IMG/VR virus record: IMGVR_UViG_3300021138_000019
Location: 10,033-74,032 of that record
Source: a virus
Length of the DNA stretch: 64,000 nt
Direction: 5' to 3' (one strand)
Shown: one piece after another, positions 2,918 through 52,712 of the stretch
How positions within the stretch are numbered: the stretch's first letter is position 1
Layout: the number at the start of each line of letters is the position of its first letter
The notes under the pieces: generated by a model
The model's database searches: none
Told to the model about the DNA's origin: nothing
The model's input: the letters and a program-made list of their open reading frames with translations, nothing else
Program-made: the position numbers and the translations under genes

Positions 2918-5900
2918 TGTTTAATGGTGGATTCAAAGGCATAAGAGCGGCTGATGGCGCTGGCTTTGTCACGACTAAAGATGTTGCCGTTCAGCAAAGT
3001 AGTCCACAACCTAAGATAACTTCTTGGGCATATACCAATGGTGCTTATGTACCATATCCCGATACTGCTATTGCTGGTGGTGAAACTATAGTTATTTACG
3101 GTTCAGGTTTTCAAAATAATGCTAACGTAGTTATTGGTGCCACAACAGTTACAAGCTCAAGACTCGACCCAAACAGAATTACATTTACGGCACCTTCTTT
3201 AAGCCCAGGTTCTTATCCCCTTTATGTTGCAAATCCTGGCGGTGGTACAGCAGTCTATTTACCAGGTGTTGTATACAACAGTTATCCTGTATGGAATTCG
3301 ACTTCTTATGCAAACACATTTACCACAGCAACATCTTCAGTAGCTTTTAATTTAAATGCAACAGATTCTGCAACTCTTACATTCTCGTTACAATCAGGGT
3401 CAAGTTTACCAACAGGTTTAACTTTAGCGGCTAATGGATACATTTCAGGAACAACAACAGTATCAAGTACAACAGTATACAATTTTACTGTCATTGCAAC
3501 AGATTCATATGCACAAGCAACTCAAGCATCTATAACATATACGATTACTTTAAATGTTTCGGACACATTTTTTAATTATACAACATTGTTACTAAATGGT
3601 GAAACAACTACAAACACATATATTCAAGACTTTAGTACAAACAACTACGCATTAACTGCCTCCGGTAATGCAAACCCAAACAGATTCTCCCCATATTGGG
3701 GTAACGGTTATTATGGTGTGAGTTTTGATGGTAGTAGCGGGTATATGTATGTTGCTTCAGCGACACCGTTGAATCTTTCATCGGGGGATTTTACTATTGA
3801 ATGCTGGTTTTATTTGATTACGGGATCAAAAACAAACGAAATTTTAAATAAAGATGGGGTTAATGGGTCATCATATTCACAGTATGAAATATATGTTAGT
3901 TCTTCAAATACACTAATAGTGAATTTAGGAAACGGTAATGGGGTATCACCTACAGACACAGATTATGGGGCAAGCACCAGTGTATCTTTAAACACTTGGC
4001 ATCATGTTGTGTGTCAGCGAACAGGTACAACTATTTCTGTTTATTTTGATGGAACCAGAGTTACTAACACCGCACAAGTTATTAACATGACCGATGGTGG
4101 TAAGGCTTTGGTATTAGGCCATCAATCAGGTGCATCCTCAGACTATTTTGCTGGTTACATATCTAATATGCGTATCGTTAAAGGAACAGCAGTATATTCT
4201 GGGTCGTCATTTACACCACCTACTGCACCACTCACCGCAATAGCCAATACTGCTTTGTTAACTTGTCAATCTGCAAACTTTATAGACAATTCAACAAATG
4301 CATACACAATAACCGCAACTGGTACAGTCAAAGTAGCTTCCAATCAACCATTTGGTACAGTGCCCAGCGGTGTACAGAATTATGGTAGTGCGCTGGTTGA
4401 TGGTGGTACTACCAGTTATATATCAGTGCCAGGGTCAACCTCATTGGGTTCCGGTAGTTGGACTATAGAGGCATGGGCATACTTTACAAATACAAGTTCA
4501 TCCTATGATGGTATAATATGTACCGGTCCTCAAGGTACTATTCAGGCTTTTATATCAAAAGGTGATGCTGGATTGACTGATGGAGTTGGTTCAAGTGCCG
4601 GAATTACATATACCACAACTTATTTTCAATGGTCGCACTATGCTCTTGTGTGTAATGGGACCACATTGTATATGTACATCAACGGTGTATTGGTAGGATC
4701 AACCGCAAGAACATACATTCCATACGGAACAACTCCCGTAATTGGTAGAAGATTTGCAAATCTAACCAGTTATGCAATGAATGGATACATTTCAAATGCT
4801 AGAATAGTTCCTGGAACCGCAGTCTACACGAGTGCATTTACACCACCAACTGCCCCATTAACTGCAATCACAAACACCTCTTTGTTAACATTACAATACA
4901 AGAATGGCTCAAACAATAGCACTTTCTATGATGATAGTGTGAATAACTTTGCATTAACCAGAACTGGCACGCCCACACAGGGCACATTCTCACCATTCAG
5001 TCAAACCGGATGGAGCACATTCATAGGATATGGCGCATATGGATATATGAATGTCCCTGCTAACACCGGGTATGATATAACTACGGGTGACTTTACTGTT
5101 GAATTCTGGGCTAACTTTTCAACATGGAATACAATGGGTTCCTCTGGTATGGTTATAGCTACTAATTTTGGTAGCAGTAGCGGATGGAGCATAGGATTTA
5201 ATGGCGGAGTCGGTTCTAGTATGTGCTGGCAAACATGGAACGCCGGTGCGGCAGTTTCCAATCTCGCTACCACTGGTATTGTAGCAGGTACAAATTTTCA
5301 ACTTGGTCAATGGAATCATTTTACTGTTATGCAAAAGACAGGTACATTATATTTCTTTCTCAATGGAGTTATGACGTATTCAGTTGCAGCCGGAGCTTCT
5401 GTTCCAGCTGGAAATGCATTATACTTTGGAGTATATGCACAGAACCTTGATTATGCAGGTAACCCATATTTTTATTTAAGTAATTTTAGGATAGTTAAAG
5501 GCACTGCGGTATATACCACAACCAATTTTACTCCATCTACTTCCCCGTTGACCGCTATATCAGGTACAACTTTGTTAATATGTCAAAATAATAGACATCT
5601 AGATAATAGCAGTATAAATGCTGTAATAACTCCGACTAGTTCAGGTACTTATCCAATAATACAACCATTCTCACCCTTTGCACCGGGTGTAGTATATTCA
5701 TCAGCGAACAATGGTGGTAGTATATACTTTAATGGATCAACAGATTATTTAACTACACCCTCAACAGTTAATATTAGTACAGGTAATTTTACATGCGAGG
5801 TTTGGTTTTATTTGACATCTACATCTGTATCAGGTCCTGGTATTTTGTGTGGAACAGCAACTGGTAGTATTCAATTTGCAATATACGGAACAGCAGGTAT

Positions 5901-30996: not shown

Positions 30997-31542
30997 ATGA
31001 AAAAAACTAAAGAATATGTTAATAATGCTGATTTTACTCAAGCATTAATTGATTATAAAACAGCATCGGACGAGGCAAAAAGACTCGGTAAACCAAAACC
31101 AAAGATCCCGAATTATATCGGCGAATGTTGGATGAAGATTGCCGAGAATTTTTCGCACAAACCTAATTTTATTAATTACCCGCATAGGGAAGAAATGGTA
31201 TCGGACGGTATTGAAAATTGTCTAATGTATTTTGAAAATTTTGATCCAAAAAAATCTAAGAACCCATTTGCTTACTTCTCACAAGTTGTATTCTATGCAT
31301 TTTTACGTAGAATAGATAAAGAGAAAAAACAATTATACGTTAAATATAAGTCAACCGAAATGATTGGTGTTTTGGATGAACATGAGCAAAACGACTTTGA
31401 AGATGGAACTTCAAGACAATTTCATTTATATGATAATATTGGTGAATTTATTTCCACGTATGAAAAAAATAAAAAAGCTAAACTTGAAAAAACCAAGAAA
31501 AAGGCAAAAGGACTTGAAAAATTTATTAAGGAGACGGTATGA
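30997..31542 (+). CDS. gp55: late sigma factor gp55
   Basis: YVNN, IPNYIGEC, DGIENC, NPFAYFSQ..AFLRRI.KEKKQ. Confidence 0.95.
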   Translation: MKKTKEYVNNADFTQALIDYKTASDEAKRLGKPKPKIPNYIGECWMKIAENFSHKPNFINYPHREEMVSDGIENCLMYFENFDPKKSKNPFAYFSQVVFYAFLRRIDKEKKQLYVKYKSTEMIGVLDEHEQNDFEDGTSRQFHLYDNIGEFISTYEKNKKAKLEKTKKKAKGLEKFIKETV

Positions 31543-31979
31543 TTGATTACAACGGTTTAAAAATAGGCTTCACATGTTCTTGTTTTGATTTGTTTCATGC
31601 CGGACATGTAATGATGTTGAAAGAGGCAAGAACACAATGCGACTATTTAATTGTAGGTCTACAATCTGACCCTACCATTGATAGACCAGAAAAAAATAAA
31701 CCGGTACAAACATTACTAGAACGGTATATTCAACTTGAAGGTTGCAAGTACGTGGATGAAATAGTTCCCTATTCCACCGAAAAAGAGTTGATGGACATCT
31801 TGACAAGTTACCCAATTGATGTTAGAATAATAGGAGAAGAGTACAGGGACAAGCAATTTACCGGTTTCAACCTATCAATGTCTGTGTACTTCAATTCAAG
31901 ACAACACAGTTTCAGTACAACAGAACTAAGACAACGTGTATTAACAGCAAACACTAAATCATTACTACCGACTAAATGA
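31539..31979 (+). CDS. cytidylyltransferase (glycerol-3-phosphate CT/TagD-like)
   Basis: FDLFHAGH (HxGH), YVDEIVPY, SFSTTELR. Confidence 0.9.
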   Translation: MIDYNGLKIGFTCSCFDLFHAGHVMMLKEARTQCDYLIVGLQSDPTIDRPEKNKPVQTLLERYIQLEGCKYVDEIVPYSTEKELMDILTSYPIDVRIIGEEYRDKQFTGFNLSMSVYFNSRQHSFSTTELRQRVLTANTKSLLPTK

Positions 31980-31983
31980 AAAA

Positions 31984-32253
31984 ATGAAAGAACGTTGGAA
32001 ATCCGGTAAATTAACTCCTGAAATTGTAAGAAAAAATGGGCAACATGGTTTAAAAGGTAAAGATATACATAATACTATTGACATTGAATACAAAGGTGTG
32101 ATATACTACGGGTGGCGTGAACTTAAAGAAAAGACTAAAGTGACAAAACATTTATACAACAAATACTATCTTAATGGTATTGATCCGGAATCTAGAATTG
32201 GTTCTAACGGACCAAACCCAAATAACATGAACTTTTTGAAAGGAGGTGTCTGA
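31984..32253 (+). pseudogene. probable C-terminal remnant of a homing endonuclease (DNA-binding part)
   Basis: Basic 89-aa ORF with IEYKGVIYYGWREL...helix motif, no catalytic domain, poor RBS. Confidence 0.45.
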
Positions 32254-32254
32254 A

Positions 32255-33329
32255 ATGAAAGTAGCTATCATAACGGACCAGCATTTTCGGTGTTAGAAAC
32301 GATTCTCCTCAATTTTTGGATTATTATGAAAAATTTTACAGAGATATTTTTTTTCCTAGCCTCGATGGTGATTCTATATCTACTGTTTTGGTTCTTGGGG
32401 ATACATTTGACAGGCGTAAATATATAAATTTTAATACTTTGAAACGTACTAGAGAAATGTTTTTCGATGAATTACTTGCCAGAAATATCAATGTCATAAT
32501 GTTAGCTGGTAATCATGATACATTTTTTAAAAATACTAATGATGTAAATTCTATTGATTTGTTATTGAATGATTACTCTAATATTACAATCATAGATCAT
32601 CCAACTGAAATCACTGTTGGTGAATATAAAGTCTGTATGCTACCATGGATATGTGCGGACAATTATCAAGATAGCATGGATGTAATTAAACAAAGTAAGG
32701 CAAATATTTGCATGGGGCATTTAGAGATTGCTGGTTTTGCAATGTATCGTGGTATGCATTCTGATGAAGGATTAGATCGTGAACTTTTTAACAAATTTGA
32801 ATATACTTTTTCCGGCCATTATCATCATAAACATAATTTTGGCAACATTTATTACCTCGGAAATCCATATGAACTCACATGGCAGGATTATTCTGATCCT
32901 CGGGGTTTTCATATTTTTGATTTCAACACTATGGATGAACCAAGGTTTATAGCAAATCCTAACAACATGTTTCTTAAAATTATGTATGATGATAAAGCTG
33001 AAACAGTTATTGAAATAAACGCAAAAGATTTATCAAAATATACCAATACACATGTTAAAGTGGTTGTAATTAATAAAACAAATCCTTACTTATTTGAAAA
33101 ATTTGTAAATCGGTTATACCAGTCTAACCCGGCCGATGTTTCTATCGCAGAAGATTTTTCAGAGTTGACAGAAGATTTAAATTCTGATATAATAGATCAA
33201 GCTGATGATACTTTGTCAATTCTAAGTAAGTATGTTGATACTATCAAAGAAGATCACATTGACAACAACAAACTTAAAAATATTTTCAAAGAACTATACG
33301 TAGAAGCATTGAATCCTGATACAGAATGA
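32255..33329 (+). CDS. gp47: recombination endonuclease gp47 (Mre11/SbcD-like); needs a +1 frameshift near 32285-32288
   Basis: AGGAGG RBS + MKVAIITDQHF in frame 0 (stop 32294-32296); GVRNDS...LGDTFD, GNHD, SGHYH in the +1 frame. Confidence 0.9.
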
Positions 33330-35038
33330 TATTATTTAAAAAAATAAAATGGCGTAATTTTTTAAGTACCGGCGCACATTTCACAGAAATTGATTTTACC
33401 AAATCTACAAATACATTGATTATTGGGCATAATGGGGCTGGAAAATCCACAATATTAGATGCGTTATGTTTTGTATTATTTAATAAGCCTTATCGTAAAA
33501 TAAACAAAACACAGATTCCCAATTCTATTAACAATTCAGATTGCATTGTAGAAATAGAATTTGAAATTGGTTCTAAAAAATATAAAGTTATACGAGGTAT
33601 CAAACCTAATACGTTTGAGATTTTCTGTAATGGGGTTTTGTTGAACCAAGATGCGAAAGCAAAAGACTATCAGGAACACTTAGAGAAGTTTATTCTCAAA
33701 TTAAATTATAAGTCCTTTACGCAAGTAGTCATCCTTGGTTCGGCATCTTTTATACCGTTCATGCAGTTAGAAACAAAAGACCGCAGAACGATTATTGAAG
33801 ACTTGTTAGATATTGAAATTTTTTCTGAAATGAATGTTATTCTTGCCGACAAATTAAAAATTGTAAAAAACAATCTAATACAAAATATAAGCGACAGAAA
33901 ACTCAAAACTGAATTAATTAAAACTAATGAAGGTTTCATTGAACAACAAAAACAATCACATGCAGAAGAGATTGAAACAAAAAGAAAAGAAATTGAAGAG
34001 TCCTCAAATATCATTGAGAAGTTACAATGCGATATTAAACTTATTAATAAGCATATTGCGGTGTTACAATCTAAAATACAAGACAAGGAATCAGTTGAAG
34101 ATAAGACAAAAAAACTTTTTCAACTTGAGGCGAAAATTGAGTCCAACATAAAAAAAATCAATAAGGATATTGAGTTCTATGAAAAAAACGACCACTGCCC
34201 AACCTGTAGACAATCAATCGAATCAGGATTCAAAACAACACAAGTATCCGAACGTCAAAGTAAAGTCGATGTTCAACAAAAGGGCCTTAAAGAAATTACA
34301 GAGGAAATTAACAAACGAAACGAACGATTAACAGAGATTTTTAATATTGTTAAACATATAAACGCACATAATAATGAAGTTATAACACATAATTCAACTG
34401 TATCGGCAACTCAAAAATACGTAACAAAGTTGTTGAAAGAGATTGATGAGTTATCTATTAAAAGAGATACCCTAACAGAAGAAGCCGGTATAAAAAAACT
34501 AAGAACTGAGTTAAACTCTTTACAATTAGATCATGAAGAACTTCACAAAACAAAACAATATTATGATTTTGCATCGACATTATTGAAAGATACTGGTATT
34601 AAAACTAAGATAGTTCGTCAGTATTTACCAGTTATGAATAAGTTAATCAATAAGTATTTGACTGCAATGGACTTCTTTGTTAATTTTAATATCGATGAAA
34701 ATTTTGAAGAGACAATTAAATCAAGACACCGTGATGAATTTAGTTATTCTAATTTTTCAGAAGGCGAAAAACTTAGAATTGATTTGGCATTATTATTTAC
34801 CTGGCGAGAAATTGCTAAAATGAAAAATTCTACAAATACCAATCTACTAATATTAGATGAAGTATTTGATTCTAGTCTTGACATTGCCGGCACAGAAGAG
34901 TTTTTAAAATTACTCAATCAACTTGGTACTGATACTAACTTGTTTGTAATTTCACATAAGGGTGACCAACTATTTGACAAATTCCGGTCAGTAATTAAAT
35001 TTGAGAAAAAAACCAATTTCAGTAGGATCGTAAAATGA
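33326..35038 (+). CDS. gp46: recombination ATPase gp46 (Rad50/SbcC-like)
   Basis: GHNGAGKST, CPTC zinc hook, FSEGEK, LILDEVFD. Confidence 0.96.
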   Translation: MILFKKIKWRNFLSTGAHFTEIDFTKSTNTLIIGHNGAGKSTILDALCFVLFNKPYRKINKTQIPNSINNSDCIVEIEFEIGSKKYKVIRGIKPNTFEIFCNGVLLNQDAKAKDYQEHLEKFILKLNYKSFTQVVILGSASFIPFMQLETKDRRTIIEDLLDIEIFSEMNVILADKLKIVKNNLIQNISDRKLKTELIKTNEGFIEQQKQSHAEEIETKRKEIEESSNIIEKLQCDIKLINKHIAVLQSKIQDKESVEDKTKKLFQLEAKIESNIKKINKDIEFYEKNDHCPTCRQSIESGFKTTQVSERQSKVDVQQKGLKEITEEINKRNERLTEIFNIVKHINAHNNEVITHNSTVSATQKYVTKLLKEIDELSIKRDTLTEEAGIKKLRTELNSLQLDHEELHKTKQYYDFASTLLKDTGIKTKIVRQYLPVMNKLINKYLTAMDFFVNFNIDENFEETIKSRHRDEFSYSNFSEGEKLRIDLALLFTWREIAKMKNSTNTNLLILDEVFDSSLDIAGTEEFLKLLNQLGTDTNLFVISHKGDQLFDKFRSVIKFEKKTNFSRIVK

Positions 35039-44374: not shown

Positions 44375-44450
44375 GTACGTGTGACCCGAAAGGCTAGGGG
44401 GCAGATTGCAAATCTGTTTTATGTAGGTTCGATTCCTATCACGTACTCCA
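44375..44450 (+). tRNA. tRNA-Cys(GCA)
   Basis: GTACGTG/CACGTAC acceptor, GCAGA-ttGCAaa-TCTGT, GTTCGA, CCA. Confidence 0.92.
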
Positions 44451-44482
44451 AAATTATTTTGTTGTAATCTTGCAACAAAGTG

Positions 44483-44511
44483 TTGACAAATGATTTTTAG
44501 TATGTTATACT
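44483..44511 (+). promoter_or_regulatory. sigma70-type promoter inside the tRNA array
   Basis: TTGACA-17bp-TATACT with TG extension. Confidence 0.85.
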
Positions 44512-44517
44512 AGAGTC

Positions 44518-44533
44518 TGTTCTTTAAAAATTT
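44518..44533 (+). promoter_or_regulatory. boxA-like antitermination element
   Basis: TGTTCTTTAAAAATTT just after the promoter; resembles rrn boxA TGCTCTTTAACA. Confidence 0.65.
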
Positions 44534-44545
44534 GAAGTAGTTTAT

Positions 44546-44621
44546 GCTCGGTTCATCTAGAGGCCTAGGATAGTGCCCTTTCACGGCATTCACACCGGTT
44601 CGAATCCGGTACCGAGTACCA
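44546..44621 (+). tRNA. tRNA-Glu(TTC)
   Basis: GCTCGGT/ACCGAGT, GTGCC-ctTTCac-GGCAT, CCA. Confidence 0.93.
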
Positions 44622-44741
44622 TTTGTTTTGCTGATGTAAGCCATGGGGTAAACGTCAACCCTGAGTAACTATATTAATAAACGGTAGTGTGGCCACCAAT
44701 TCCGTTGAGGTATAGCAAATAGTGCGTCAGCAAAACAAATG
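44620..44741 (+). ncRNA. putative structured RNA closed by a long stem
   Basis: CATTTGTTTTGCTGATGTA ... TGCGTCAGCAAAACAAATG with internal sub-hairpins. Confidence 0.55.
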
Positions 44742-44746
44742 ATTTT

Positions 44747-44823
44747 GGTCCCATAGTATAGCCTGGTTATTACAGCGGCTTGTCACGCCGTCAACAGGGG
44801 TTCGAATCCCCTTGGGACCGCCA
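44747..44823 (+). tRNA. tRNA-Asp(GTC)
   Basis: GGTCCCA/TGGGACC, GCGGC-ttGTCac-GCCGT, CCA. Confidence 0.93.
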
Positions 44824-44841
44824 AAAAAGAAGATAGTATAT

Positions 44842-44920
44842 TCCCTGGAATTCGAGCATGGTGCACGGACTTGACTGTTAATCAATGATTAGCTGGGATC
44901 GTTACCCAGACAGGGAGCCA
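44842..44920 (+). tRNA. tRNA-Asn(GTT), atypical
   Basis: TCCCTG/CAGGGA, TTGA-ctGTTaa-TCAA, T-loop ATCGTTA, CCA. Confidence 0.8.
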
Positions 44921-44925
44921 AATAA

Positions 44926-45004
44926 CTCGGTGTAGGATAGTCTGGTTCATTCCACCTGTTTTGGGAACAGGAAATCGCAAGTTCAAATCTTGCCACCGAG
45001 ACCA
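44926..45004 (+). tRNA. tRNA-Pro(TGG)
   Basis: CTCGGTG/CACCGAG, CCTGT-ttTGGga-ACAGG, CCA. Confidence 0.92.
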
Positions 45005-45010
45005 ATTAAT

Positions 45011-45095
45011 GGATGTGCCGCCGTAATGGTATGGCAGGAGATTGTAAATCTTCCGGTTTACACCACAGTTGGTTCGATCCCAACCACATCCACCA
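45011..45095 (+). tRNA. tRNA-Tyr(GTA)
   Basis: GGATGTG/CACATCC, GGAGA-ttGTAaa-TCTTC, long variable arm, CCA. Confidence 0.9.
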
Positions 45096-45116
45096 TTAAC
45101 CTTATTAAGGATAATT

Positions 45117-45359
45117 ATGAATTACATAATTACATTTTTAGCAGTATTCATTACAGATATCTTGTATTGTTTTTTTATAAAAGCAATGAACGAAGATAAA
45201 ATGTTTCTTGCAAGTATTTGGAGTTGCTTAGTAACATTGGCCGCAAGTGTAGCGGCAATCAATTATATTGATGACCATACAATGATAATTGCATCTGTAT
45301 TAGGTGCGTTTTGCGGCACTTACGTTGCAATGAAGTTGAAAAAGAAATTATTGCCCTAA
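45117..45359 (+). CDS. small membrane protein (about 3 TM segments)
   Basis: AAGGA RBS; hydrophobic 80-aa ORF; 3' end overlaps tRNA-Thr. Confidence 0.7.
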   Translation: MNYIITFLAVFITDILYCFFIKAMNEDKMFLASIWSCLVTLAASVAAINYIDDHTMIIASVLGAFCGTYVAMKLKKKLLP

Positions 45360-45426
45360 TAGTATAGTGGTATTACAACGGATTTGTAATCCGTTGACGG
45401 GAGTTCGATTCTCTCTTGGGGCACCA
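45353..45426 (+). tRNA. tRNA-Thr(TGT)
   Basis: GCCCTAA/TTGGGGC, ACGGA-ttTGTaa-TCCGT, CCA. Confidence 0.92.
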
Positions 45427-45491
45427 TATAGAAACACACTCATTAAGGCATCCGGTACGAAAGTAAATTTGGCCGAGTGTGTTTCTATATG
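45425..45491 (+). ncRNA. long hairpin/structured spacer RNA
   Basis: Perfect 17-bp stem CATATAGAAACACACTC/GAGTGTGTTTCTATATG enclosing TAC-GAAA-GTA. Confidence 0.55.
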
Positions 45492-45496
45492 TAATT

Positions 45497-45570
45497 CTCT
45501 CGCAAGTGTTCCGGTAGCACAAGGTTCTCCAAAAGCCTTGGACGGGGTTCGATTCCCTGGCGGGAGGCCA
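45497..45570 (+). tRNA. tRNA-Trp(CCA)
   Basis: CTCTCGC/GCGGGAG, AGGTT-ctCCAaa-AGCCT, CCA. Confidence 0.88.
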
Positions 45571-45571
45571 A

Positions 45572-46159
45572 TTATTCTATGAGTCCGGTAATCTGTTGAA
45601 TAGCTTCAATAGCATCAGACGAATAAAAATAGTCTAATAAATTTTCAGACATAAGATTAAGAATTTCGATTCTTCTTTCCATATTCTTTAAGGTATTTTT
45701 TAAGTTGTCAATATGGTTCTGTGTGAATTTTTGCAATATATTTTCTTTTTTCCTAGACTTGATTCGCACTACAATCATTTCAAATTTTTTGATATCTCTC
45801 GTAACATTGCCAATATTGTTATTAACATTTTTTATAGCCTCAATAATATCACCTTTCATCATCATAATTAAATCATCATTAATAGGATCCATTTTATTAA
45901 TAAAATGCATTGTGAGTTGAGCAAGTTCATTAAGAACTTCTGCATTAATATCGTAAGTTTGATTTACTGTACCAGTGGCATCATAATGGGCACGTTTATC
46001 AGGATCACTTAGTGTCTCATACGCCATTTTAATTTTTTTAAATTTCTCTTCTTCACCTCCTTTATCTGGATGATGTATCTGAGCTAACAAACGATAAGCG
46101 TGTTTAATTTCTTCACTTGTTGCATCTGGTGAAATTCCCAGTTGTTTGTATAAATCCAT
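45572..46159 (-). CDS. DnaJ (J-domain) protein
   Basis: DLYKQLGI..A..EEIKHAYR.LA...HPDKGG; HPD motif; C-terminal coiled coil. Confidence 0.9.
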   Translation of the reverse strand: MDLYKQLGISPDATSEEIKHAYRLLAQIHHPDKGGEEEKFKKIKMAYETLSDPDKRAHYDATGTVNQTYDINAEVLNELAQLTMHFINKMDPINDDLIMMMKGDIIEAIKNVNNNIGNVTRDIKKFEMIVVRIKSRKKENILQKFTQNHIDNLKNTLKNMERRIEILNLMSENLLDYFYSSDAIEAIQQITGLIE

Positions 46160-46213
46160 GATGTTTAAATAAGTAGTAGTTAGATATTTATTGTTGTTAA
46201 AGGAAGATGTTTT

Positions 46214-46690
46214 ATGAGAGATTTTGATATAAAAGTAGTCAAAGATTTTATTTTGGCTCAAGGACCGGATACAAAAGTATATCTAGGTGCCGACTCGGAA
46301 CGTCTTAGAATTAATGGTGTATGGTATGCTGACTATGCACTTGCGGTTGTTGTTCACATTGATGGTTGCCATGGTTGTAAAATTTTTGGTTTTGTTGACC
46401 GTGAATTAGATTACGATCACAAAAAAAGTAAACCAGCAATGCGTTTGATGACAGAAGTATATAAAGTGTCTGAATTGTTTCAAGAAATGTCGGATGTTCT
46501 AGAAGACCGTCACGTTGAAGTACATTTAGATTTAAACAAATCGGATGAATTCGGTTCTTCTTGCGTTGTGCAACAAGCAATTGGGTACATCAAAGGTACA
46601 TGTGATATTACTCCGATGGTAAAACCAGATGCACCTGCCGCAAGTTTTTGTGCCGACAGATTAAAAAGAATCTTGGCCGAACAAATATAA
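46214..46690 (+). CDS. RNase H-like protein (YkuK/DUF458-like)
   Basis: VYLGADS, RLMTEV, EVHLDLN, KPDAPAASFCAD. Confidence 0.75.
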   Translation: MRDFDIKVVKDFILAQGPDTKVYLGADSERLRINGVWYADYALAVVVHIDGCHGCKIFGFVDRELDYDHKKSKPAMRLMTEVYKVSELFQEMSDVLEDRHVEVHLDLNKSDEFGSSCVVQQAIGYIKGTCDITPMVKPDAPAASFCADRLKRILAEQI

Positions 46691-46695
46691 ATAAT

Positions 46696-46772
46696 GGAGA
46701 CTATAGTGTAACGGTTTAGCACCCGACTCTGTGAAAGTCGTAGAATGGGTTCGTCTCCCATTAGTCTCCCCA
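46696..46772 (+). tRNA. tRNA-His(GTG)
   Basis: G-1:C73, GAGACTA/TAGTCTC, CGACT-ctGTGaa-AGTCG; late promoter TATAAATA at 46686-46693. Confidence 0.92.
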
Positions 46773-46791
46773 AACTTTGTTAAGGAAAATT

Positions 46792-47064
46792 ATGAAAATA
46801 GGTGGTATCTATTATGATGTTATTCATAAAACAAATGAAGAACTGAATGGTAATGTTGGTCTTGCAGATTTCAATAGACAAGAAATTAGCATTAACACAG
46901 AGCATACAATGCAAACTCAAAGGATTGCTTTAATACATGAAGTTTTGCACATTTTGGATAATACCTATAATCTTAAGTTAACTGAAGAACAAGTAACTTT
47001 TACTGCACACGCATTAGTAAGTTTAATTGAAGATAACAAAGAGTTTTTGAAAAGTTTTTTATAA
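46792..47064 (+). CDS. small HEXXH metallopeptidase-like protein
   Basis: LIHEVLH; AAGGA RBS. Confidence 0.65.
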   Translation: MKIGGIYYDVIHKTNEELNGNVGLADFNRQEISINTEHTMQTQRIALIHEVLHILDNTYNLKLTEEQVTFTAHALVSLIEDNKEFLKSFL

Positions 47065-47073
47065 AGGAATATT

Positions 47074-47319
47074 ATGTACACACCCCTGCATGACAAGATT
47101 ATCGTTCAACGACTTGAAAAAGTCAATCAAACTGATTCGGGTATCATACTCAAATCTTCACCAGAACCAGACAGAGCAAAAGTTATTGCTGTAGGACCTG
47201 ATGTTGAAGAAGTTGCAATCGGTGAAGAGATTCTAGTAAATTGGAACGGTGCAATCAAAGTCAAAGATGACATATACACATTAAAAGTAGAGCATGTTGT
47301 TGGTGTTTTCGAATCTTAA
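47074..47319 (+). CDS. groES: co-chaperonin GroES-like
   Basis: PLHDKIIV, TDSGIIL, AKVIAVGP. Confidence 0.9.
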   Translation: MYTPLHDKIIVQRLEKVNQTDSGIILKSSPEPDRAKVIAVGPDVEEVAIGEEILVNWNGAIKVKDDIYTLKVEHVVGVFES

Positions 47320-47347
47320 TAAATATCAATTTAACTGTTAAAACATC

Positions 47348-47893
47348 ATGTCACATAGAGAACAACGAGATTTTATTACCAGACTCAAAGAAAAATTCCC
47401 AAATAATTTCAAAAACATTAAAATGCTTGAAATCGGTAGTCTAGATATAAATGGATCTATTAGAGATTATTTTGAAAACTGCAACTATATTGGTTATGAT
47501 GTTGGTGAAGGAAAACTCGTTGATGTTGTTTATGACGGTATCACATTCAGGGCAGAAGATATAGAATTTGATACTACCGGAAGTTGTAATTGTTTTGAGC
47601 ATAATCCTAATTGGGTATCTAATTTTAAAGATATGCACAGAATATTAAAATCTGGTGGCTTGCATTTTATATCTGTACCGACAACAGGATGCCCTGAACA
47701 TGGTACGGAAAAACAAAACTCTAGTGATAGTCCTTTGACAATTGTAAAAGGTGAAGGATGGAAAGATTATTATAAGAATCTAACGGAAGAAGACTTCAGA
47801 GAAAACTTTAATTTAGGTGAAATGTTTAGTGAATATAAATTTGAAGTAAACAATGAGGTTCACGATTTATATTTTTTCGGTATTAAAAAATAA
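47348..47893 (+). CDS. class I SAM-dependent methyltransferase
   Basis: LEIGSLDING, FEHNP, LKSGG. Confidence 0.8.
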   Translation: MSHREQRDFITRLKEKFPNNFKNIKMLEIGSLDINGSIRDYFENCNYIGYDVGEGKLVDVVYDGITFRAEDIEFDTTGSCNCFEHNPNWVSNFKDMHRILKSGGLHFISVPTTGCPEHGTEKQNSSDSPLTIVKGEGWKDYYKNLTEEDFRENFNLGEMFSEYKFEVNNEVHDLYFFGIKK

Positions 47894-47967
47894 GCGGGAT
47901 TAGTTAAATGGTAGAACGGGACCTTGCCAAGGTTCGGACACGAGTTCGATTCTCGTATCCCGCTCCA
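47894..47967 (+). tRNA. tRNA-Gly(GCC)
   Basis: GCGGGAT/ATCCCGC, GGACC-ttGCCaa-GGTTC, CCA. Confidence 0.93.
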
Positions 47968-48011
47968 AATTTTCATAAAAGTTTCATAGTGAAAACGACT
48001 ATATAGTATAT

Positions 48012-48085
48012 AGCGGGTTAGTAAAACAGAATTACGGAGGACTCATAATCCTCAGTTCCTGGTGCGACTCCGGGACCCGCATCCA
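48012..48085 (+). tRNA. tRNA-Met(CAT), initiator-like 1:72 mismatch
   Basis: AGCGGGT/ACCCGCA, GAGGA-ctCATaa-TCCTC, atypical T-loop TGCGACT, CCA. Confidence 0.8.
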
Positions 48086-48113
48086 AACTACTTTAAATTT
48101 AGGTGAACAATTA

Positions 48114-49163
48114 ATGTCAAAAGTTTTGTTTCTTCTCAAGCGCAGGGAAGATTATCATAGTATAACGCATTCAAATATCGGTTTAAGTACCGGCTTATAC
48201 AATTCGGCAAGTTTCATGTATGAAATGCTGAACAATAATGGTGTGCAATCAAAATTAGTTGTATGTATAGATAATAATTGTATTGACCGTGAAGTCAATA
48301 TATATAAACCAACTCATGTAATTATTGAAGCTCTTTGGGTAACACCAACCAAGTTTGCAATACTACAAAAGTTGCATCCTTCAGTTAAGTGGATTATCAG
48401 ATTACATTCTGAATTACCATTTATGGCAGGTGAAGGTATTGCTATGGATTGGATTGCCGAATATTCAACCTATAAAAATGTTGTTATTGCATGTAATGCA
48501 CCACGAATGTTACATGACATGAGGGTGTATGTAAAAGAACATTTTGGGTTTAGAATTTGTAAAATTGAAGAAAAGATTGTATATTTACCAAATTATTACC
48601 CGCAAGAATTTGATATTAAAAAATTAGATACTAAAAAAGAATTTGTTGATGTTGGTTGTTTTGGTGCTATAAGACCGCTTAAAAATCATTTATCACAAGC
48701 ACTAGGCGCATTACAATTTGCTAATCGAATAAAAAAGAAATTGAGATTTCATGTCAATGCCGGACGTATTGAAATGAAAGGTGAGCCAATGATTAATAAT
48801 CTAAAATCTTTTTTTATACAGGTTAATGATACCGGACATCAACTGATAAACCATCAATGGACTCCTAGAGATAATTTTACCGAATTGTGTTCAAAAATGG
48901 ATATTGGTTTGCAGGTAAGTTTTTCGGAAACTTTTAATATTGTTGGGGCAGATTTCGTATCTCAAGGAGTACCATTTGTTGGGTCTTTAGAAATACCGTG
49001 GATGTCAAATACTTTTGCCGCAGATCCTACTGACACAAAAGATATTGCCAGAAAATTAGAATTGGCGTATACATGGCCTCGTCTAAATACATGGTTAAAT
49101 AGAAAGAGTCTCAAAAATTATACTGATGAGACCCTTACTATATGGTTAAAATATTTTAAATAA
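48114..49163 (+). CDS. GT-B fold glycosyltransferase-like protein
   Basis: GAIRPLKN, SETFNIVGAD (E-x7-D/E type motif). Confidence 0.7.
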   Translation: MSKVLFLLKRREDYHSITHSNIGLSTGLYNSASFMYEMLNNNGVQSKLVVCIDNNCIDREVNIYKPTHVIIEALWVTPTKFAILQKLHPSVKWIIRLHSELPFMAGEGIAMDWIAEYSTYKNVVIACNAPRMLHDMRVYVKEHFGFRICKIEEKIVYLPNYYPQEFDIKKLDTKKEFVDVGCFGAIRPLKNHLSQALGALQFANRIKKKLRFHVNAGRIEMKGEPMINNLKSFFIQVNDTGHQLINHQWTPRDNFTELCSKMDIGLQVSFSETFNIVGADFVSQGVPFVGSLEIPWMSNTFAADPTDTKDIARKLELAYTWPRLNTWLNRKSLKNYTDETLTIWLKYFK

Positions 49164-49172
49164 GGAAAACAA

Positions 49173-49364
49173 ATGTCACATCACATGGTAAAAAAACACA
49201 AATGGGTTGGTGGTGTTTTAGAATCTTCTTCACATTTTTTTGATTCTTTTGAAAGTGCTAAGGAATTTTTAAATACACAAGATGCTGATACGTTGAAAAT
49301 TTTTAATGCTAATGGTGAATTAGTTCACGAATTAGTCACAACAACCAACACATCCATATCCTGA
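49173..49364 (+). CDS. hypothetical protein
   Basis: AAGGA RBS, 63 aa. Confidence 0.6.
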   Translation: MSHHMVKKHKWVGGVLESSSHFFDSFESAKEFLNTQDADTLKIFNANGELVHELVTTTNTSIS

Positions 49365-49399
49365 TAACTTTTTTTAATTTGCTTTGATGATTAATTTTT

Positions 49400-49579
49400 A
49401 TGAATATTCCAATAAAATTAACGCTCGATCAAATGCATCTCACAACAAAACTTTTAGAACTTTTAGAAGAAGTAGAACACGCCGGTAAATTCTTATTTTA
49501 TTGCTTCGTGTTTTTTCTGGGTATAACAATTAGCGTACTATTAATCCTCTTTTGGGCTTTCAAAAATAGGTTTCTTTGA
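49400..49579 (+). CDS. putative 59-aa single-TM protein
   Basis: Fills the intergenic gap; FLFYCFVFFLGITISVLLILFWAF; weak RBS; not in the ORF track. Confidence 0.4.
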   Translation: MNIPIKLTLDQMHLTTKLLELLEEVEHAGKFLFYCFVFFLGITISVLLILFWAFKNRFL

Positions 49580-50347
49580 TTTTTCAATATACTCTAAGAT
49601 CTCCCTCTTTCTCAATTCCTCTAATTTATATTGATTAGTGTGTTGAAAAAGACTGGGATATCTTTTTTGTGCATCATGTGCAATATAAGCGAAAACGCAA
49701 CTCATTGAAAATATTATAACAAGTAATACACCACCAAAATACGCATCGGCTCGTAGATGTTGCATAAAGATAGCCTTTCTTCTTGCATCCGCCGCTTCCA
49801 TTTTCATTTTTCTAGCGATGAGAATTTTTTCTTGTTCCCCAAGCTCCTCCATCATTTTATTCACATCAGTCCACAAAGCACCAAGTTCAGGCGGACTTTG
49901 ATAAACTACTAGCTCACGCAAATCAACACTCATTTGCTGTAATTTCTTTTTCATTAAGACTCGTTGCAACGCACGTTTACCTAAACTGGCGTCACCTTCA
50001 TAAATATGAGTTTTTGCATACTTTTCTTCCTCAGCTAAAACGGTTTGGCATTTATAAAATGCGTCAAAAAATTCACCGAGCCTTTCACCAATTTCAGAAT
50101 AAATATCATCAGTATCCCCACCTTTTTTGTTTAACTCAATTATTTCATTTTTCTTTTCGATTAATTGTTTTCGTTGTTCATTCGTTGCAGGTTTATCTTT
50201 ATGGTGGTCGTGGAACTGCTTATCAAGATCGTCAAGAACTTCTTTTACGTTCCCTGCCGCACCTTTGATATCTTTGTAGAGTTGACAACCTTTTTTGACA
50301 GCCGCAACAGCGGCATTCGCCATAGCGAATAATGTTATTGGATCCAT
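49541..50347 (-). CDS. hypothetical coiled-coil protein with C-terminal TM segment
   Basis: 268 aa, MDPITLFAMANAAVAAVK N-terminus, hydrophobic segment near the C-terminus. Confidence 0.7.
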   Translation of the reverse strand: MDPITLFAMANAAVAAVKKGCQLYKDIKGAAGNVKEVLDDLDKQFHDHHKDKPATNEQRKQLIEKKNEIIELNKKGGDTDDIYSEIGERLGEFFDAFYKCQTVLAEEEKYAKTHIYEGDASLGKRALQRVLMKKKLQQMSVDLRELVVYQSPPELGALWTDVNKMMEELGEQEKILIARKMKMEAADARRKAIFMQHLRADAYFGGVLLVIIFSMSCVFAYIAHDAQKRYPSLFQHTNQYKLEELRKREILEYIEKSKKPIFESPKED

Positions 50348-50410
50348 TTAAAGAGTTATAATTACCAGACATTAATAATCAAATTTCATGGTAAAGATAA
50401 CAAGAACTGC

Positions 50411-50439
50411 TTGACAGTTCAGACGATTTCATATATAAT
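50411..50439 (+). promoter_or_regulatory. consensus sigma70 promoter for tRNA-Gly and the gp43 operon
   Basis: TTGACA-17bp-TATAAT. Confidence 0.9.
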
Positions 50440-50458
50440 AGACAATCTATCTATTTAT

Positions 50459-50532
50459 GCGTGGTTAGTTTAATGGTAGAATTAGAGCCTTCCAAGCTCA
50501 AGACAAGGGTTCGATTCCCTTACCACGCTCCA
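50459..50532 (+). tRNA. tRNA-Gly(TCC)
   Basis: GCGTGGT/ACCACGC, GAGC-ctTCCaa-GCTC, CCA. Confidence 0.92.
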
Positions 50533-52178: not shown

Positions 52179-52712
52179 ATGAAATATAATATCACTAAGG
52201 ATAAACTCTTTGAACTATTCATTATCAAAAATATGAGAAGGAATGAGGTAGCTGAATACTTTGGTTGTTCGGATGCCAACATAAAAAAATACCTAAAAAA
52301 ATTTGACATTAAGAAGCCTTTTGATTTAGAATGTAAGAATAAAGAACGAAAGTCTTTATTAAATTGTTTGCATTGTGGTAAAGAATATGAAACGCAGAAG
52401 TTTCGGACCGAAAGTGAGAAATATGATTCAAAATATTGTAGTTATTCGTGTGCTCAAAAAAGTAGGTATTTGGGTGAAGAACATAAACGTAGAATTAGAA
52501 ATGAAATTGCCGCAAGGCGCAGAGCAAGAATACGGAATCAAACTCCAAAATTAAGTAAAAAGGAAAAGAAGAAATTGCAGGAATATTATTTGATTTGTCC
52601 TAAAGGACACGAAGTGGACCATATACAGCCTATTGCAAAAGGCGGTTTACATCATCCTGATAATTTACAAATATTAACTAGAACTGAAAATAGAAAAAAG
52701 TGGTGTAAATAA
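52179..52712 (+). mobile_element. free-standing HNH homing endonuclease splitting gp43
   Basis: N-terminal HTH, CxxC...YCSxxC zinc site, EVDHIQP...GGLHHPDNLQIL...N. Confidence 0.9.

What the first reader, a model, noticed from the sequence alone, without database searches (positions are those of the whole stretch)
32241..32318. gp47 needs a +1 frameshift at CAU_UUU_CGG inside its first catalytic motif
Seen: a perfect RBS (AGGAGG) and ATG 32255 give MKVAIITDQHF-R-C-stop. Slipping one base (UUU to UUC) gives DQHF-GVRNDS, continuous with the rest of gp47. The DxH metal-binding motif lies in frame 0, so the track's TTG start at 32316 would yield an enzyme lacking it. Established: UUU_CGN is a known +1 shift motif (influenza PA-X), with tRNA-Phe re-pairing and a slow Arg codon in the A site. 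gp46/47 is needed for T4 replication. Inference: a programmed shift, possibly an insertion that destroys the target site of the adjacent endonuclease remnant. A single-base assembly error in a T4 run is equally possible.
Basis: partly seen in the sequence, partly recalled or inferred. Interest (0 to 1): 0.7.

Follow-up and report, generated by a model that had tools for sequence, protein, structure and literature searches.

The report
Endonuclease-linked +1 frameshift in phage gp47
The phage's DNA-repair nuclease gene gp47 carries one extra base inside its active-site codons. The same break recurs in over 80 uncultured phage contigs and in the cultured Caulobacter phage Cr30, usually behind a selfish homing-endonuclease gene, so ribosomes most likely skip the base, as in the T4 gene 60 bypass.

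Summary
ATG 32255 behind AGGAGG reads MKVAIITDQHF-R-C-stop, and one base forward (TTT_C_GGT, extra base at 32288) the frame continues as GVRNDS… for 346 codons.

It is not an assembly error.
- 81 other viral contigs, from more than 70 samples, have a one-base insertion at exactly this codon.
- The Phe codon is always TTT. The inserted base is C in 72 and T in 10 of the 82 sequences (window included), never A or G, so the +1 codon is always Phe.
- Variation follows codon phase 0 before the site and phase +1 after it. dN/dS of the downstream frame is about 0.12.
- CGG is the rarest sense codon in the window.

The shift travels with an insertion: a strong Shine-Dalgarno sequence plus a Mob-like HNH homing endonuclease gene. 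Window ORF 31984-32253 is its C-terminal remnant. L027 and L031 are essentially identical over more than 2 kb, apart from this insert, the first 11 gp47 codons and the extra base.

Best reading (about 0.68): an endonuclease-protective indel decoded by +1 slippage of tRNA-Phe. This is a one-base analogue of the T4 mobA/gene 60 bypass cassette.

Cultured Caulobacter phage Cr30 has the same site, annotated as a truncated CDS, so the idea is testable. This scan noted the same phenomenon earlier on other DNA (e1-5596311). I found no paper describing it.

The parts
31539..31979 (+). Cytidylyltransferase-like gene. In unshifted relatives its stop codon overlaps the gp47 ATG, so it marks the left flank of the insertion.
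   Evidence: Pfam CTP_transf_like 7.7e-16. L004 and L031 have overlapping stop and start. The L027/L031 alignment breaks at its 3' end.
31984..32253 (+). Remnant (89 aa) of a Mob-like HNH homing endonuclease. Only the C-terminal, presumably DNA-binding, half is left and there is no HNH motif.
   Evidence: It aligns to the C-terminal half of the 163-233 aa upstream ORFs of relatives (A1). Full-length forms carry HNH (Pfam) and match phrog_655 'homing endonuclease' at 1e-35 to 1e-40. L002 has a further deleted version of the same remnant.
32241..32246 (+). Strong Shine-Dalgarno sequence AGGAGG, part of the inserted cassette.
   Evidence: A 5-mer SD core is present in 48 of 55 shifted loci against 4 of 35 unshifted unique loci (Mann-Whitney p 2e-9).
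32255..32287 (+). Frame-0 start of gp47: 11 codons MKVAIITDQHF holding motif I (D-x-H).
   Evidence: Across 54 unique shifted sequences, variation falls on third codon positions of this frame.
32285..32290 (+). Shift site TTT_CGG. The P-site codon is UUU, the extra base is C at 32288, and the A-site codon is CGG.
   Evidence: TTT in 82 of 82 sequences (window included). The inserted base is C in 72 and T in 10, never A or G. CGG is the rarest sense codon of the window, 14 of 18,426 codons.
32294..32296 (+). Frame-0 stop TAG, which ends the 13-aa product of ribosomes that do not shift.
   Evidence: In 50 of 55 unique shifted loci the frame-0 stop lies 2-4 codons from the TTT, counting the TTT as the first.
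32289..33329 (+). +1-frame body of gp47 (Mre11/SbcD-like nuclease subunit), 346 codons plus stop.
   Evidence: phrog_100 at 1.3e-105 and Pfam Metallophos. dN/dS against L002 is 0.134 and the median among shifted pairs is 0.115.
33326..35038 (+). gp46 (Rad50/SbcC-like partner). Its start overlaps the gp47 stop.
   Evidence: Pfam SMC_N and AAA_23.

Best explanation
gp47 of this uncultured T4-like phage is interrupted by one extra base directly after the Phe codon of its first metal-binding motif (CAU UUU C GGU).

How the gene is read (inferred). Ribosomes start at ATG 32255 behind a strong Shine-Dalgarno sequence and translate 11 codons. They pause with peptidyl-tRNA-Phe on UUU in the P site while the A site holds CGG, the rarest codon of this genome. 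A fraction of tRNA-Phe re-pairs one base forward on UUC, so GGU is read next and full-length gp47 is made. Ribosomes that do not shift terminate after 13 residues.

Where the extra base came from (inferred from comparative data). It belongs to a mobile cassette made of a Mob-like HNH homing endonuclease gene, a strong Shine-Dalgarno sequence, a replacement copy of the first 11 gp47 codons and the one-base insertion. The insertion most likely makes the gp47 target resistant to that endonuclease: a 'saviour indel' paid for by compensatory frameshifting. In the window the endonuclease has decayed to an 89-aa C-terminal remnant, while the shift and the Shine-Dalgarno sequence remain.

Shown here: the anatomy, the conservation, the selection in both frames, the link with the endonuclease gene and the cassette boundaries. 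Inferred: the frameshift itself, its efficiency, and the cleavage and immunity.
For: (1) Recurrence. A scan allowing any inserted base and either Phe codon found 81 contigs from more than 70 samples. Independent protein-based searches found the same site, and so does cultured phage Cr30.
(2) Slippery signature. The Phe codon is TTT in 55 of 55 unique shifted loci, against 32 TTT and 8 TTC in unshifted loci (Fisher p 6e-4). The inserted base is only C or T, so the +1 codon is always Phe.
(3) Hungry codon. CGG occurs at 0.76 per 1000 codons, the rarest sense codon of the window. No Arg or Phe tRNA is encoded in the 74-kb contig.
(4) Frame switch in selection. High entropy sits on codon position 3 of frame 0 up to TTT and on position 3 of frame +1 after it. 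The +1 ORF is full length in nearly all loci. Median dN/dS is 0.115.
(5) Link to the endonuclease. The RIG..GP C-terminus of the endonuclease lies upstream in 34 of 55 shifted loci against 3 of 40 unshifted unique loci (Fisher p 4e-8). The three unshifted loci with the gene have D-I-H or D-S-H instead of D-Q/T-H.
(6) Cassette boundaries. L027 and L031 are about 100% identical for more than 1.1 kb on each side. They differ only by the 140-nt insert, five changes in the first 33 nt of gp47 and the extra base, and identity resumes at the GGN.
(7) Mobility. Shifted and unshifted gp47 are interleaved in the tree, and well-supported branches force at least 8 changes of state.
(8) Precedents. UUU_CGN is a +1 motif (PMC3498833, PMC5052127). 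T4 mobA/gene 60 is the precedent for the cassette, and there polymorphisms alone did not block nicking while the insert did (10.1101/2022.08.31.505936). The saviour-indel class is described in PMC5009743.
Against: - There is no protein or reporter evidence.
- No stimulatory RNA structure was found: RNAalifold gave an empty consensus and folding energies match shuffled controls. There is no prfB-like internal SD next to the site, so efficiency may be low.
- In-frame TTT_CGG occurs once elsewhere in the window (52401), so the motif is not strictly avoided.
- The UUU_UGG variant has no rare A-site codon.
- The C/T-only pattern would also arise from T-run expansion as the mutational origin.
- Most linked endonuclease genes (about 175 aa) lack the HNH core, and 21 of 55 shifted loci show no endonuclease motif, so present-day homing activity is unproven.
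- L027 carries only a remnant yet has flanks identical to L031, so that transfer may have been ordinary recombination or repair after cleavage by an enzyme supplied in trans.
- Sampling is biased: most shifted loci were retrieved with a pattern.
Confidence: 0.68

Rival explanations
1. The +1 shift is real and decoded by ribosomes, but its purpose is regulatory: it sets a low gp47 level or couples it to the supply of tRNA-Arg(CCG). The endonuclease gene merely prefers this intergenic spot, and the indel is not an immunity device.
For: 21 of 55 shifted loci, and Cr30, keep the shift without any endonuclease motif. Three loci with the endonuclease gene are unshifted. The strong SD is always retained.
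Against: The shift, the SD and the insert are gained or lost together between near-identical genomes. The three unshifted loci with the gene have an altered x residue of D-x-H, seen in none of the 37 endonuclease-free unshifted loci. In many 'endonuclease-free' shifted loci, remnants of the gene can be traced.
Confidence: 0.15
2. Four-base decoding: a special tRNA reads CGGN as Gly, or UUUC/UUUU as Phe, in one step rather than by P-site slippage.
For: The extra C always precedes a Gly codon. The window encodes two tRNA-Gly genes.
Against: Both tRNA-Gly genes have ordinary 7-nt anticodon loops, and no tRNA lies in the other 10 kb of the contig. In-frame CGG_G and CGG_T inside gp47 itself are read as Arg, for example in the conserved DPRGF motif. 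Ten contigs have UUU_UGG, which a CGGN reader cannot explain. The invariant UUU points to tRNA-Phe. The contig is only about 44% complete, so absence of such a tRNA is not proven.
Confidence: 0.06
3. gp47 is broken or N-terminally truncated in these phages. Protein is made from an internal start (TTG 32316) without motif I, or not at all.
For: GenBank annotates Cr30 gp47 in this way. Some loci have a chance TTG in the +1 frame upstream of the site.
Against: The 11 frame-0 codons keep the peptide MK(V/I)A(I/L)(I/V)TD(Q/T)HF with mostly synonymous variation across 54 unique shifted sequences. The window has no start codon in the +1 frame before 32316. A protein from 32316 lacks Metallophos profile positions 1-28. 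The strong SD is conserved in front of the frame-0 ATG.
Confidence: 0.06
4. The correction happens at the nucleic-acid level: polymerase slippage on the T run in transcription, or a mixed phage population (T3/T4).
For: The site contains a short T run (TTTT in the window).
Against: Many shifted loci have only CAC TTT C (three T), which is too short for known transcriptional slippage. Assemblies from more than 70 samples consistently report the shifted form.
Confidence: 0.03
5. Single-base sequencing or assembly error in this contig.
For: It is a metagenome-assembled contig and the site is a 4-T homopolymer.
Against: Identical sequence occurs in two other assemblies (L002, L003). The same insertion occurs in 81 contigs and in a cultured phage. 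It is tightly linked to a separate 70-280 nt insertion and a strong SD.
Confidence: 0.01

Closest known systems
T4 mobA / gene 60 translational-bypass cassette (Bonocora et al. 2011, as cited in PMC5009743; 10.1101/2022.08.31.505936)
   Same: A Mob-family HNH homing endonuclease gene sits directly upstream of an essential DNA-metabolism gene in T4-like phages. The element carries its own replacement copy of the adjacent target codons, followed by a frame-breaking insertion that ribosomes must get past. It is scattered over the target-gene phylogeny. The insertion is thought to protect against the element's own nuclease.
   Different: The insertion is 1 nt rather than 50 nt, so decoding would be simple +1 P-site slippage rather than take-off and landing bypass. 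No structured RNA or nascent-peptide signal was found. The target is gp47 (Mre11-like), not the topoisomerase. The element does not split the target into two genes. Nuclease activity and immunity are untested here.
UUU_CGN +1 frameshift sites of influenza A PA-X (PMC3498833) and plant amalgaviruses (PMC5052127)
   Same: The same slippery arrangement: P-site UUU re-pairing to UUC, with a rarely used CGN Arg codon in the A site and no obvious RNA structure.
   Different: Those are eukaryotic RNA viruses that make an additional trans-frame product at low level. Here a bacterial ribosome would have to make the only functional product of a core gene, and a UUU_UGG variant also exists.
prfB (RF2) +1 frameshift, CUU_UGA
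   Same: Bacterial +1 P-site slippage onto a better or equal pairing (CUU to UUU) with a slowly decoded A site. The shift is needed to make the full-length protein.
   Different: prfB uses a stop codon in the A site and an internal SD-like stimulator 3 nt upstream, and it is autoregulatory. Here the A site holds a sense codon, the only SD is the initiation SD about 38 nt upstream, and no feedback loop is evident.
'Saviour indel' with compensatory frameshifting (herpesvirus thymidine kinase G-run mutants; class defined in PMC5009743)
   Same: An indel confers protection against an outside agent, and low-level frameshifting restores enough product.
   Different: The agent here would be a homing endonuclease rather than a drug. 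The state is evolutionarily stable and widespread rather than a selected laboratory or clinical mutant.

Membership tests
Programmed +1 ribosomal frameshift (P-site slippage at a hungry codon) | The P-site codon allows its tRNA to re-pair in the +1 frame | tested here: met
   UUU to UUC or UUU in 82 of 82 sequences. TTT in 55 of 55 shifted against 32 of 40 unshifted unique loci.
Programmed +1 ribosomal frameshift (P-site slippage at a hungry codon) | Slowly decoded A-site codon | tested here: inconclusive
   CGG is the rarest sense codon of the window (14 of 18,426). However, 10 contigs use UGG, which is not rare (11.6 per 1000). Host tRNA pools are unknown.
Programmed +1 ribosomal frameshift (P-site slippage at a hungry codon) | Phylogenetic conservation of the site, with purifying selection in frame 0 before it and frame +1 after it | tested here: met
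   Entropy by codon position. Median dN/dS 0.115. Full-length +1 ORFs.
Programmed +1 ribosomal frameshift (P-site slippage at a hungry codon) | Trans-frame protein product demonstrated | not testable with these tools
   Needs mass spectrometry or a reporter. Cr30 with Caulobacter crescentus CB15 is a culturable system.
Homing-endonuclease plus recoding cassette (T4 mobA/gene 60 type) | A Mob-family HNH homing endonuclease gene directly upstream of the recoded gene | tested here: met
   Full-length forms in L104, L162, L166, L174, L182 and L186 match phrog_655 at 1e-35 to 1e-40, carry Pfam HNH, and hit genes annotated MobE. The window holds only the 89-aa C-terminal remnant.
Homing-endonuclease plus recoding cassette (T4 mobA/gene 60 type) | The element brings its own copy of the adjacent target codons, and its right end is at the recoding insertion | tested here: met
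   L027 and L031 are identical except for the insert, the first 33 nt of gp47 and the extra base. The window and L002 are identical from -165 to +54 with diverged flanks.
Homing-endonuclease plus recoding cassette (T4 mobA/gene 60 type) | Scattered (mobile) distribution on the target-gene tree | tested here: met
   Quick IQ-TREE of 90 gp47 rows: well-supported branches force at least 8 changes of state, and near-identical shifted/unshifted pairs occur. Caveats: quick search only, and sampling was biased by the pattern.
Homing-endonuclease plus recoding cassette (T4 mobA/gene 60 type) | The endonuclease cleaves the uninterrupted allele and the insertion blocks cleavage | not testable with these tools
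   Indirect support only: the three unshifted loci with the gene have D-I-H or D-S-H at the site.
gp47 / Mre11-SbcD calcineurin-like nuclease | Motif I (D-x-H) at the N-terminus followed by GD..DR and GNHD | tested here: met
   This holds only if frames 0 and +1 are joined: DQH lies in frame 0, and GDTFDRR and GNHD in frame +1. Metallophos covers profile positions 1-190 in intact L004 against positions 29-190 for the TTG ORF. phrog_100 at 1.3e-105.
Quadruplet (CGGN=Gly) decoding by a phage tRNA | A tRNA with an expanded anticodon loop, and several genes with the same four-base word | tested here: not met
   11 tRNAs, and the two tRNA-Gly genes inspected have normal 7-nt anticodon loops. In-frame CGG codons within gp47 read as Arg. 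UUU_UGG variants exist. The contig is only about 44% complete.

The most novel reading that the evidence does not exclude
A second natural class of homing-endonuclease-borne recoding, beside the T4 gene 60 bypass. A Mob-like HNH element spreads through aquatic and soil T4-like phages carrying a one-base 'immunity' insertion in the active-site codons of the core gene gp47. Bacterial ribosomes decode it by efficient +1 slippage at UUU_CGG or UUU_UGG. Slippage may be boosted by heavy ribosome loading from the cassette's strong SD, because a ribosome paused 10 codons downstream is within collision distance of the start site.
Probability: 0.5. Interest if true: 0.85.

Novelty: new variant of a known kind. 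Interest (0 to 1): 0.75.

Why it matters
- The T4 gene 60 bypass has long been the main textbook case of a homing endonuclease travelling with a recoding signal. A widespread, much simpler one-base version in another core gene would show that this is a general strategy: break the target, and let the ribosome repair the message.
- It would also be a natural, required +1 frameshift on a sense codon in bacteria at the UUU_CGN motif, which is so far known from eukaryotic viruses.
- In practice, gene callers and GenBank records truncate these gp47 genes (Cr30 is one). gp47 would then appear to lack its catalytic motif in a sizeable group of uncultured T4-like phages.
- Because Cr30 grows on Caulobacter crescentus CB15, the prediction can be tested directly.

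Tried and rejected
- Assembly error: rejected by recurrence.
- RNA structure as stimulator: RNAalifold on 55 shifted and 40 unshifted sequences in four windows gave no consensus structure, and folding energies were close to shuffled controls.
- prfB-like internal SD: none lies next to the site; the only SD is the initiation SD.
- Special tRNA: none found in the 74-kb contig.
- Family assignment of window ORF89 alone: no Pfam, PHROG or phage tblastn hit. It became interpretable only through the longer relatives.
- Cultured phages with the gp47-specific endonuclease: the nearest HNH homologues (Rhizobium phage P9VFCI, Sinorhizobium phage phiM9) sit in other gene contexts.
- Close cultured relatives of shifted gp47: none above 50% identity. 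DLP6, Mosig and Melnitz are unshifted by their annotation. blastn with the Cr30 site found only Cr30.
- PDB sequence search with intact gp47: no hit at E<=0.01.
- Literature: no paper found describing a gp47 frameshift.
- The careful tree search did not finish, so only the quick tree was used.

Full report
**Observation**

The sequence is as described.
- AGGAGG (32241-32246) precedes ATG 32255, which reads MKVAIITDQHFRC and stops at TAG 32294-32296.
- The +1 frame is closed until 32273. From GGT 32289 it reads GVRNDSPQFLDYYEKFY… through to 33329.
- The two pieces joined reproduce the N-terminus of the uninterrupted gp47 of a relative with 83% identity (L004).
- Pfam Metallophos matches that intact protein from profile position 1. 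The ORF from TTG 32316 begins at profile position 29 and so lacks the D-x-H motif.
- The window is part of a 74-kb, roughly 44% complete IMG/VR contig of a T4-like phage. The gene order is helicase, gp55, cytidylyltransferase, [89-aa ORF], gp47, gp46.

**Not an error**

- A protein-based search for gp47 loci returned 80 contigs. Six of them have the same extra base (L002/L003, L020/L021, L027/L057), and their gp47 is only 60-83% identical to the window's.
- A DNA pattern that left the inserted base and the Phe codon free (ACN GAY NNN CAY TTY N GGN…) returned 81 contigs from more than 70 sample identifiers.
- In all 82 sequences (window included) the Phe codon is TTT. The inserted base is C in 72 and T in 10. 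TTC, or an inserted A or G, never occurs.
- The +1 ORF is full length (about 340-350 codons) in practically every contig that is long enough.
- The cultured Caulobacter phage Cr30 (KF301602.1) has the same arrangement: GAAAGGAG…ATG GCT AAA GTT GCT ATC CTG AAC GAT ATT CAT TTT C GGA ACA AGA. Its GenBank CDS starts at a downstream TTG, so it is annotated as a truncated protein.

**Evidence that both frames are translated**

- Across 54 unique shifted sequences, nucleotide variation sits on the third codon position of frame 0 up to the TTT, and on the third position of frame +1 after the inserted base. The third base of TTT is invariant.
- In unshifted relatives the Phe codon is TTT 32 times and TTC 8 times, against 55 and 0 in shifted ones (Fisher p 6e-4).
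- Pairwise dN/dS of the +1 ORF among shifted phages has a median of 0.115. The window against L002, which carry the same cassette, gives 0.134 at dS 0.84.
- CGG is the rarest sense codon in the window's ORFs (14 of 18,426). The contig's 11 tRNA genes include none for Arg or Phe.
- These are the expected marks of +1 P-site slippage of tRNA-Phe (UUU to UUC or UUU) at a slowly decoded A-site codon. UUU_CGN is the motif established for influenza PA-X and amalgaviruses (PMC3498833, PMC5052127).

**Link to a homing endonuclease**

- In unshifted relatives the stop of the cytidylyltransferase gene overlaps the gp47 ATG. In shifted ones there is an insertion of about 70-800 nt.
- In many contigs this insertion is an ORF of 163-280 aa. 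The full-length forms (L104, L162, L166, L174, L182, L186) have an HNH motif, match phrog_655 'homing endonuclease' at 1e-35 to 1e-40, and resemble genes annotated MobE in T4-like phages.
- Many others (about 175 aa) are intact but lack the roughly 57-aa HNH core. The window's ORF 31984-32253 is only the conserved C-terminal half (A1).
- Among 95 unique loci, the endonuclease's C-terminal motif lies upstream in 34 of 55 shifted loci and in 3 of 40 unshifted ones (Fisher p 4e-8). Those three have D-I-H or D-S-H, whereas all 37 unshifted loci without the motif have D-Q/T-H.
- A strong SD core precedes the start in 48 of 55 shifted loci against 4 of 35 unshifted ones.

**Cassette boundaries and mobility**

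- L027 (shifted) and L031 (unshifted) are essentially identical for more than 1.1 kb on each side. They differ only by a 140-nt insert (endonuclease remnant plus SD), five synonymous or conservative changes in the first 33 nt of gp47, and the extra base. Identity resumes exactly at the Gly codon.
- The window and L002 share an identical stretch from -165 to +54 around the site while the rest of gp47 is about 80% identical. L002 has a larger deletion in the remnant.
- On a quick maximum-likelihood tree of 90 gp47 rows, shifted and unshifted genes are interleaved, and well-supported branches force at least 8 changes of state.
- The shift therefore moves as a unit with the insert and the first 11 codons. 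This is the architecture described for the MobA element of T4-like phages: an HNH gene, an element-borne replacement of the adjacent target codons, then the recoding insertion (10.1101/2022.08.31.505936).
- In that system sequence polymorphisms alone did not block nicking but the insertion did. That offers a reason why a costly indel would be used here.

**Mechanism proposed and what remains inferred**

Shown here:
- the anatomy and conservation of the site;
- selection in both frames;
- the link with the endonuclease gene and the cassette boundaries.

Inferred:
- that ribosomes shift +1 at UUU_CGG or UUU_UGG;
- that the indel protects against the HNH enzyme;
- that the strong SD compensates for low shift efficiency, or promotes shifting through ribosome load.

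On the last point, a ribosome paused with CGG in its A site has that A site 10 codons ahead of an initiating ribosome's. This is within the 8-11 codon spacing of collided ribosomes discussed in PMC6815119.

No conserved RNA structure was found. One other in-frame TTT_CGG exists in the window (52401). The UUU_UGG variant lacks a rare A-site codon. The T/C-only pattern could also reflect T-run expansion as the mutational origin.

**Rivals**

It is unlikely here: the Gly tRNAs are ordinary, in-frame CGG_G and CGG_T within gp47 read as Arg, and the UGG variants would not be covered.
- A truncated or dead gp47 conflicts with the selection on the 11 frame-0 codons and with the conserved SD.
- Transcriptional slippage is unlikely with runs of three T.
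- A purely regulatory role for the shift, unrelated to endonuclease immunity, cannot be excluded (about 0.15).

**Comparison with what is known, and novelty**

- The closest system is the T4 mobA/gene 60 bypass cassette.
- The closest site is UUU_CGN of PA-X and amalgaviruses.
- The conceptual class is the 'saviour indel with compensatory frameshifting' of PMC5009743.
- I found no paper describing a gp47 frameshift.
- The scan itself noted the same phenomenon on another genome (e1-5596311). That agrees with these results but is not independent proof.
- I rate it a new variant of a known kind, of high interest because it is widespread, mechanistically simple and testable in Cr30.

Noticed in passing
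L197:365-420 (Caulobacter phage Cr30, KF301602.1): GenBank CDS AGS81034.1 (gp47 homologue) is annotated from a downstream TTG and lacks motif I. The real start, ATG behind GAAAGGAG, is one base out of frame at CAT TTT C GGA. No endonuclease gene lies upstream, only a 74-aa hypothetical ORF.
   Followed up: partly
L091:1444-1971, L083:4409-4939, L096:3008-3541, L105:7779-8303 and others: Many of the ORFs upstream of shifted gp47 (about 175 aa) are intact and conserved but lack the roughly 57-aa HNH core present in L104, L162 and L174. They may be nuclease-less DNA-binding derivatives kept for some function, or recently disabled genes.
   Followed up: partly
L122/L123 (around 3025-3100), L138 (=L053), L144: Loci with the endonuclease gene but no frameshift have D-I-H or D-S-H instead of D-Q/T-H at the gp47 site. 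This may be an alternative, substitution-based way of escaping the nuclease.
   Followed up: partly
window 52401 (ORF 52179-52712): The only other in-frame TTT_CGG of the window lies inside the HNH gene that separates the two halves of the DNA polymerase gene. Whether any shifting occurs there is unknown.
   Followed up: no
L094 (contig IMGVR_UViG_3300046005_001159): It has the same cassette as L091 and L103, but the +1 ORF of gp47 stops after 112 codons. This is either a sequencing error or a true pseudogene.
   Followed up: no
L029, L030, L032: Unshifted gp47 (CAT TTC GGT) preceded by a GGAGGTG Shine-Dalgarno sequence, unlike most unshifted loci. These may be revertants that lost the extra base but kept part of the cassette.
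   Followed up: no
window 44375-50532: An array of 11 tRNA genes (Cys, Glu, Asp, Pro, Tyr, Thr, Trp, His, Gly x2, Met), none for Arg or Phe.
   Followed up: partly
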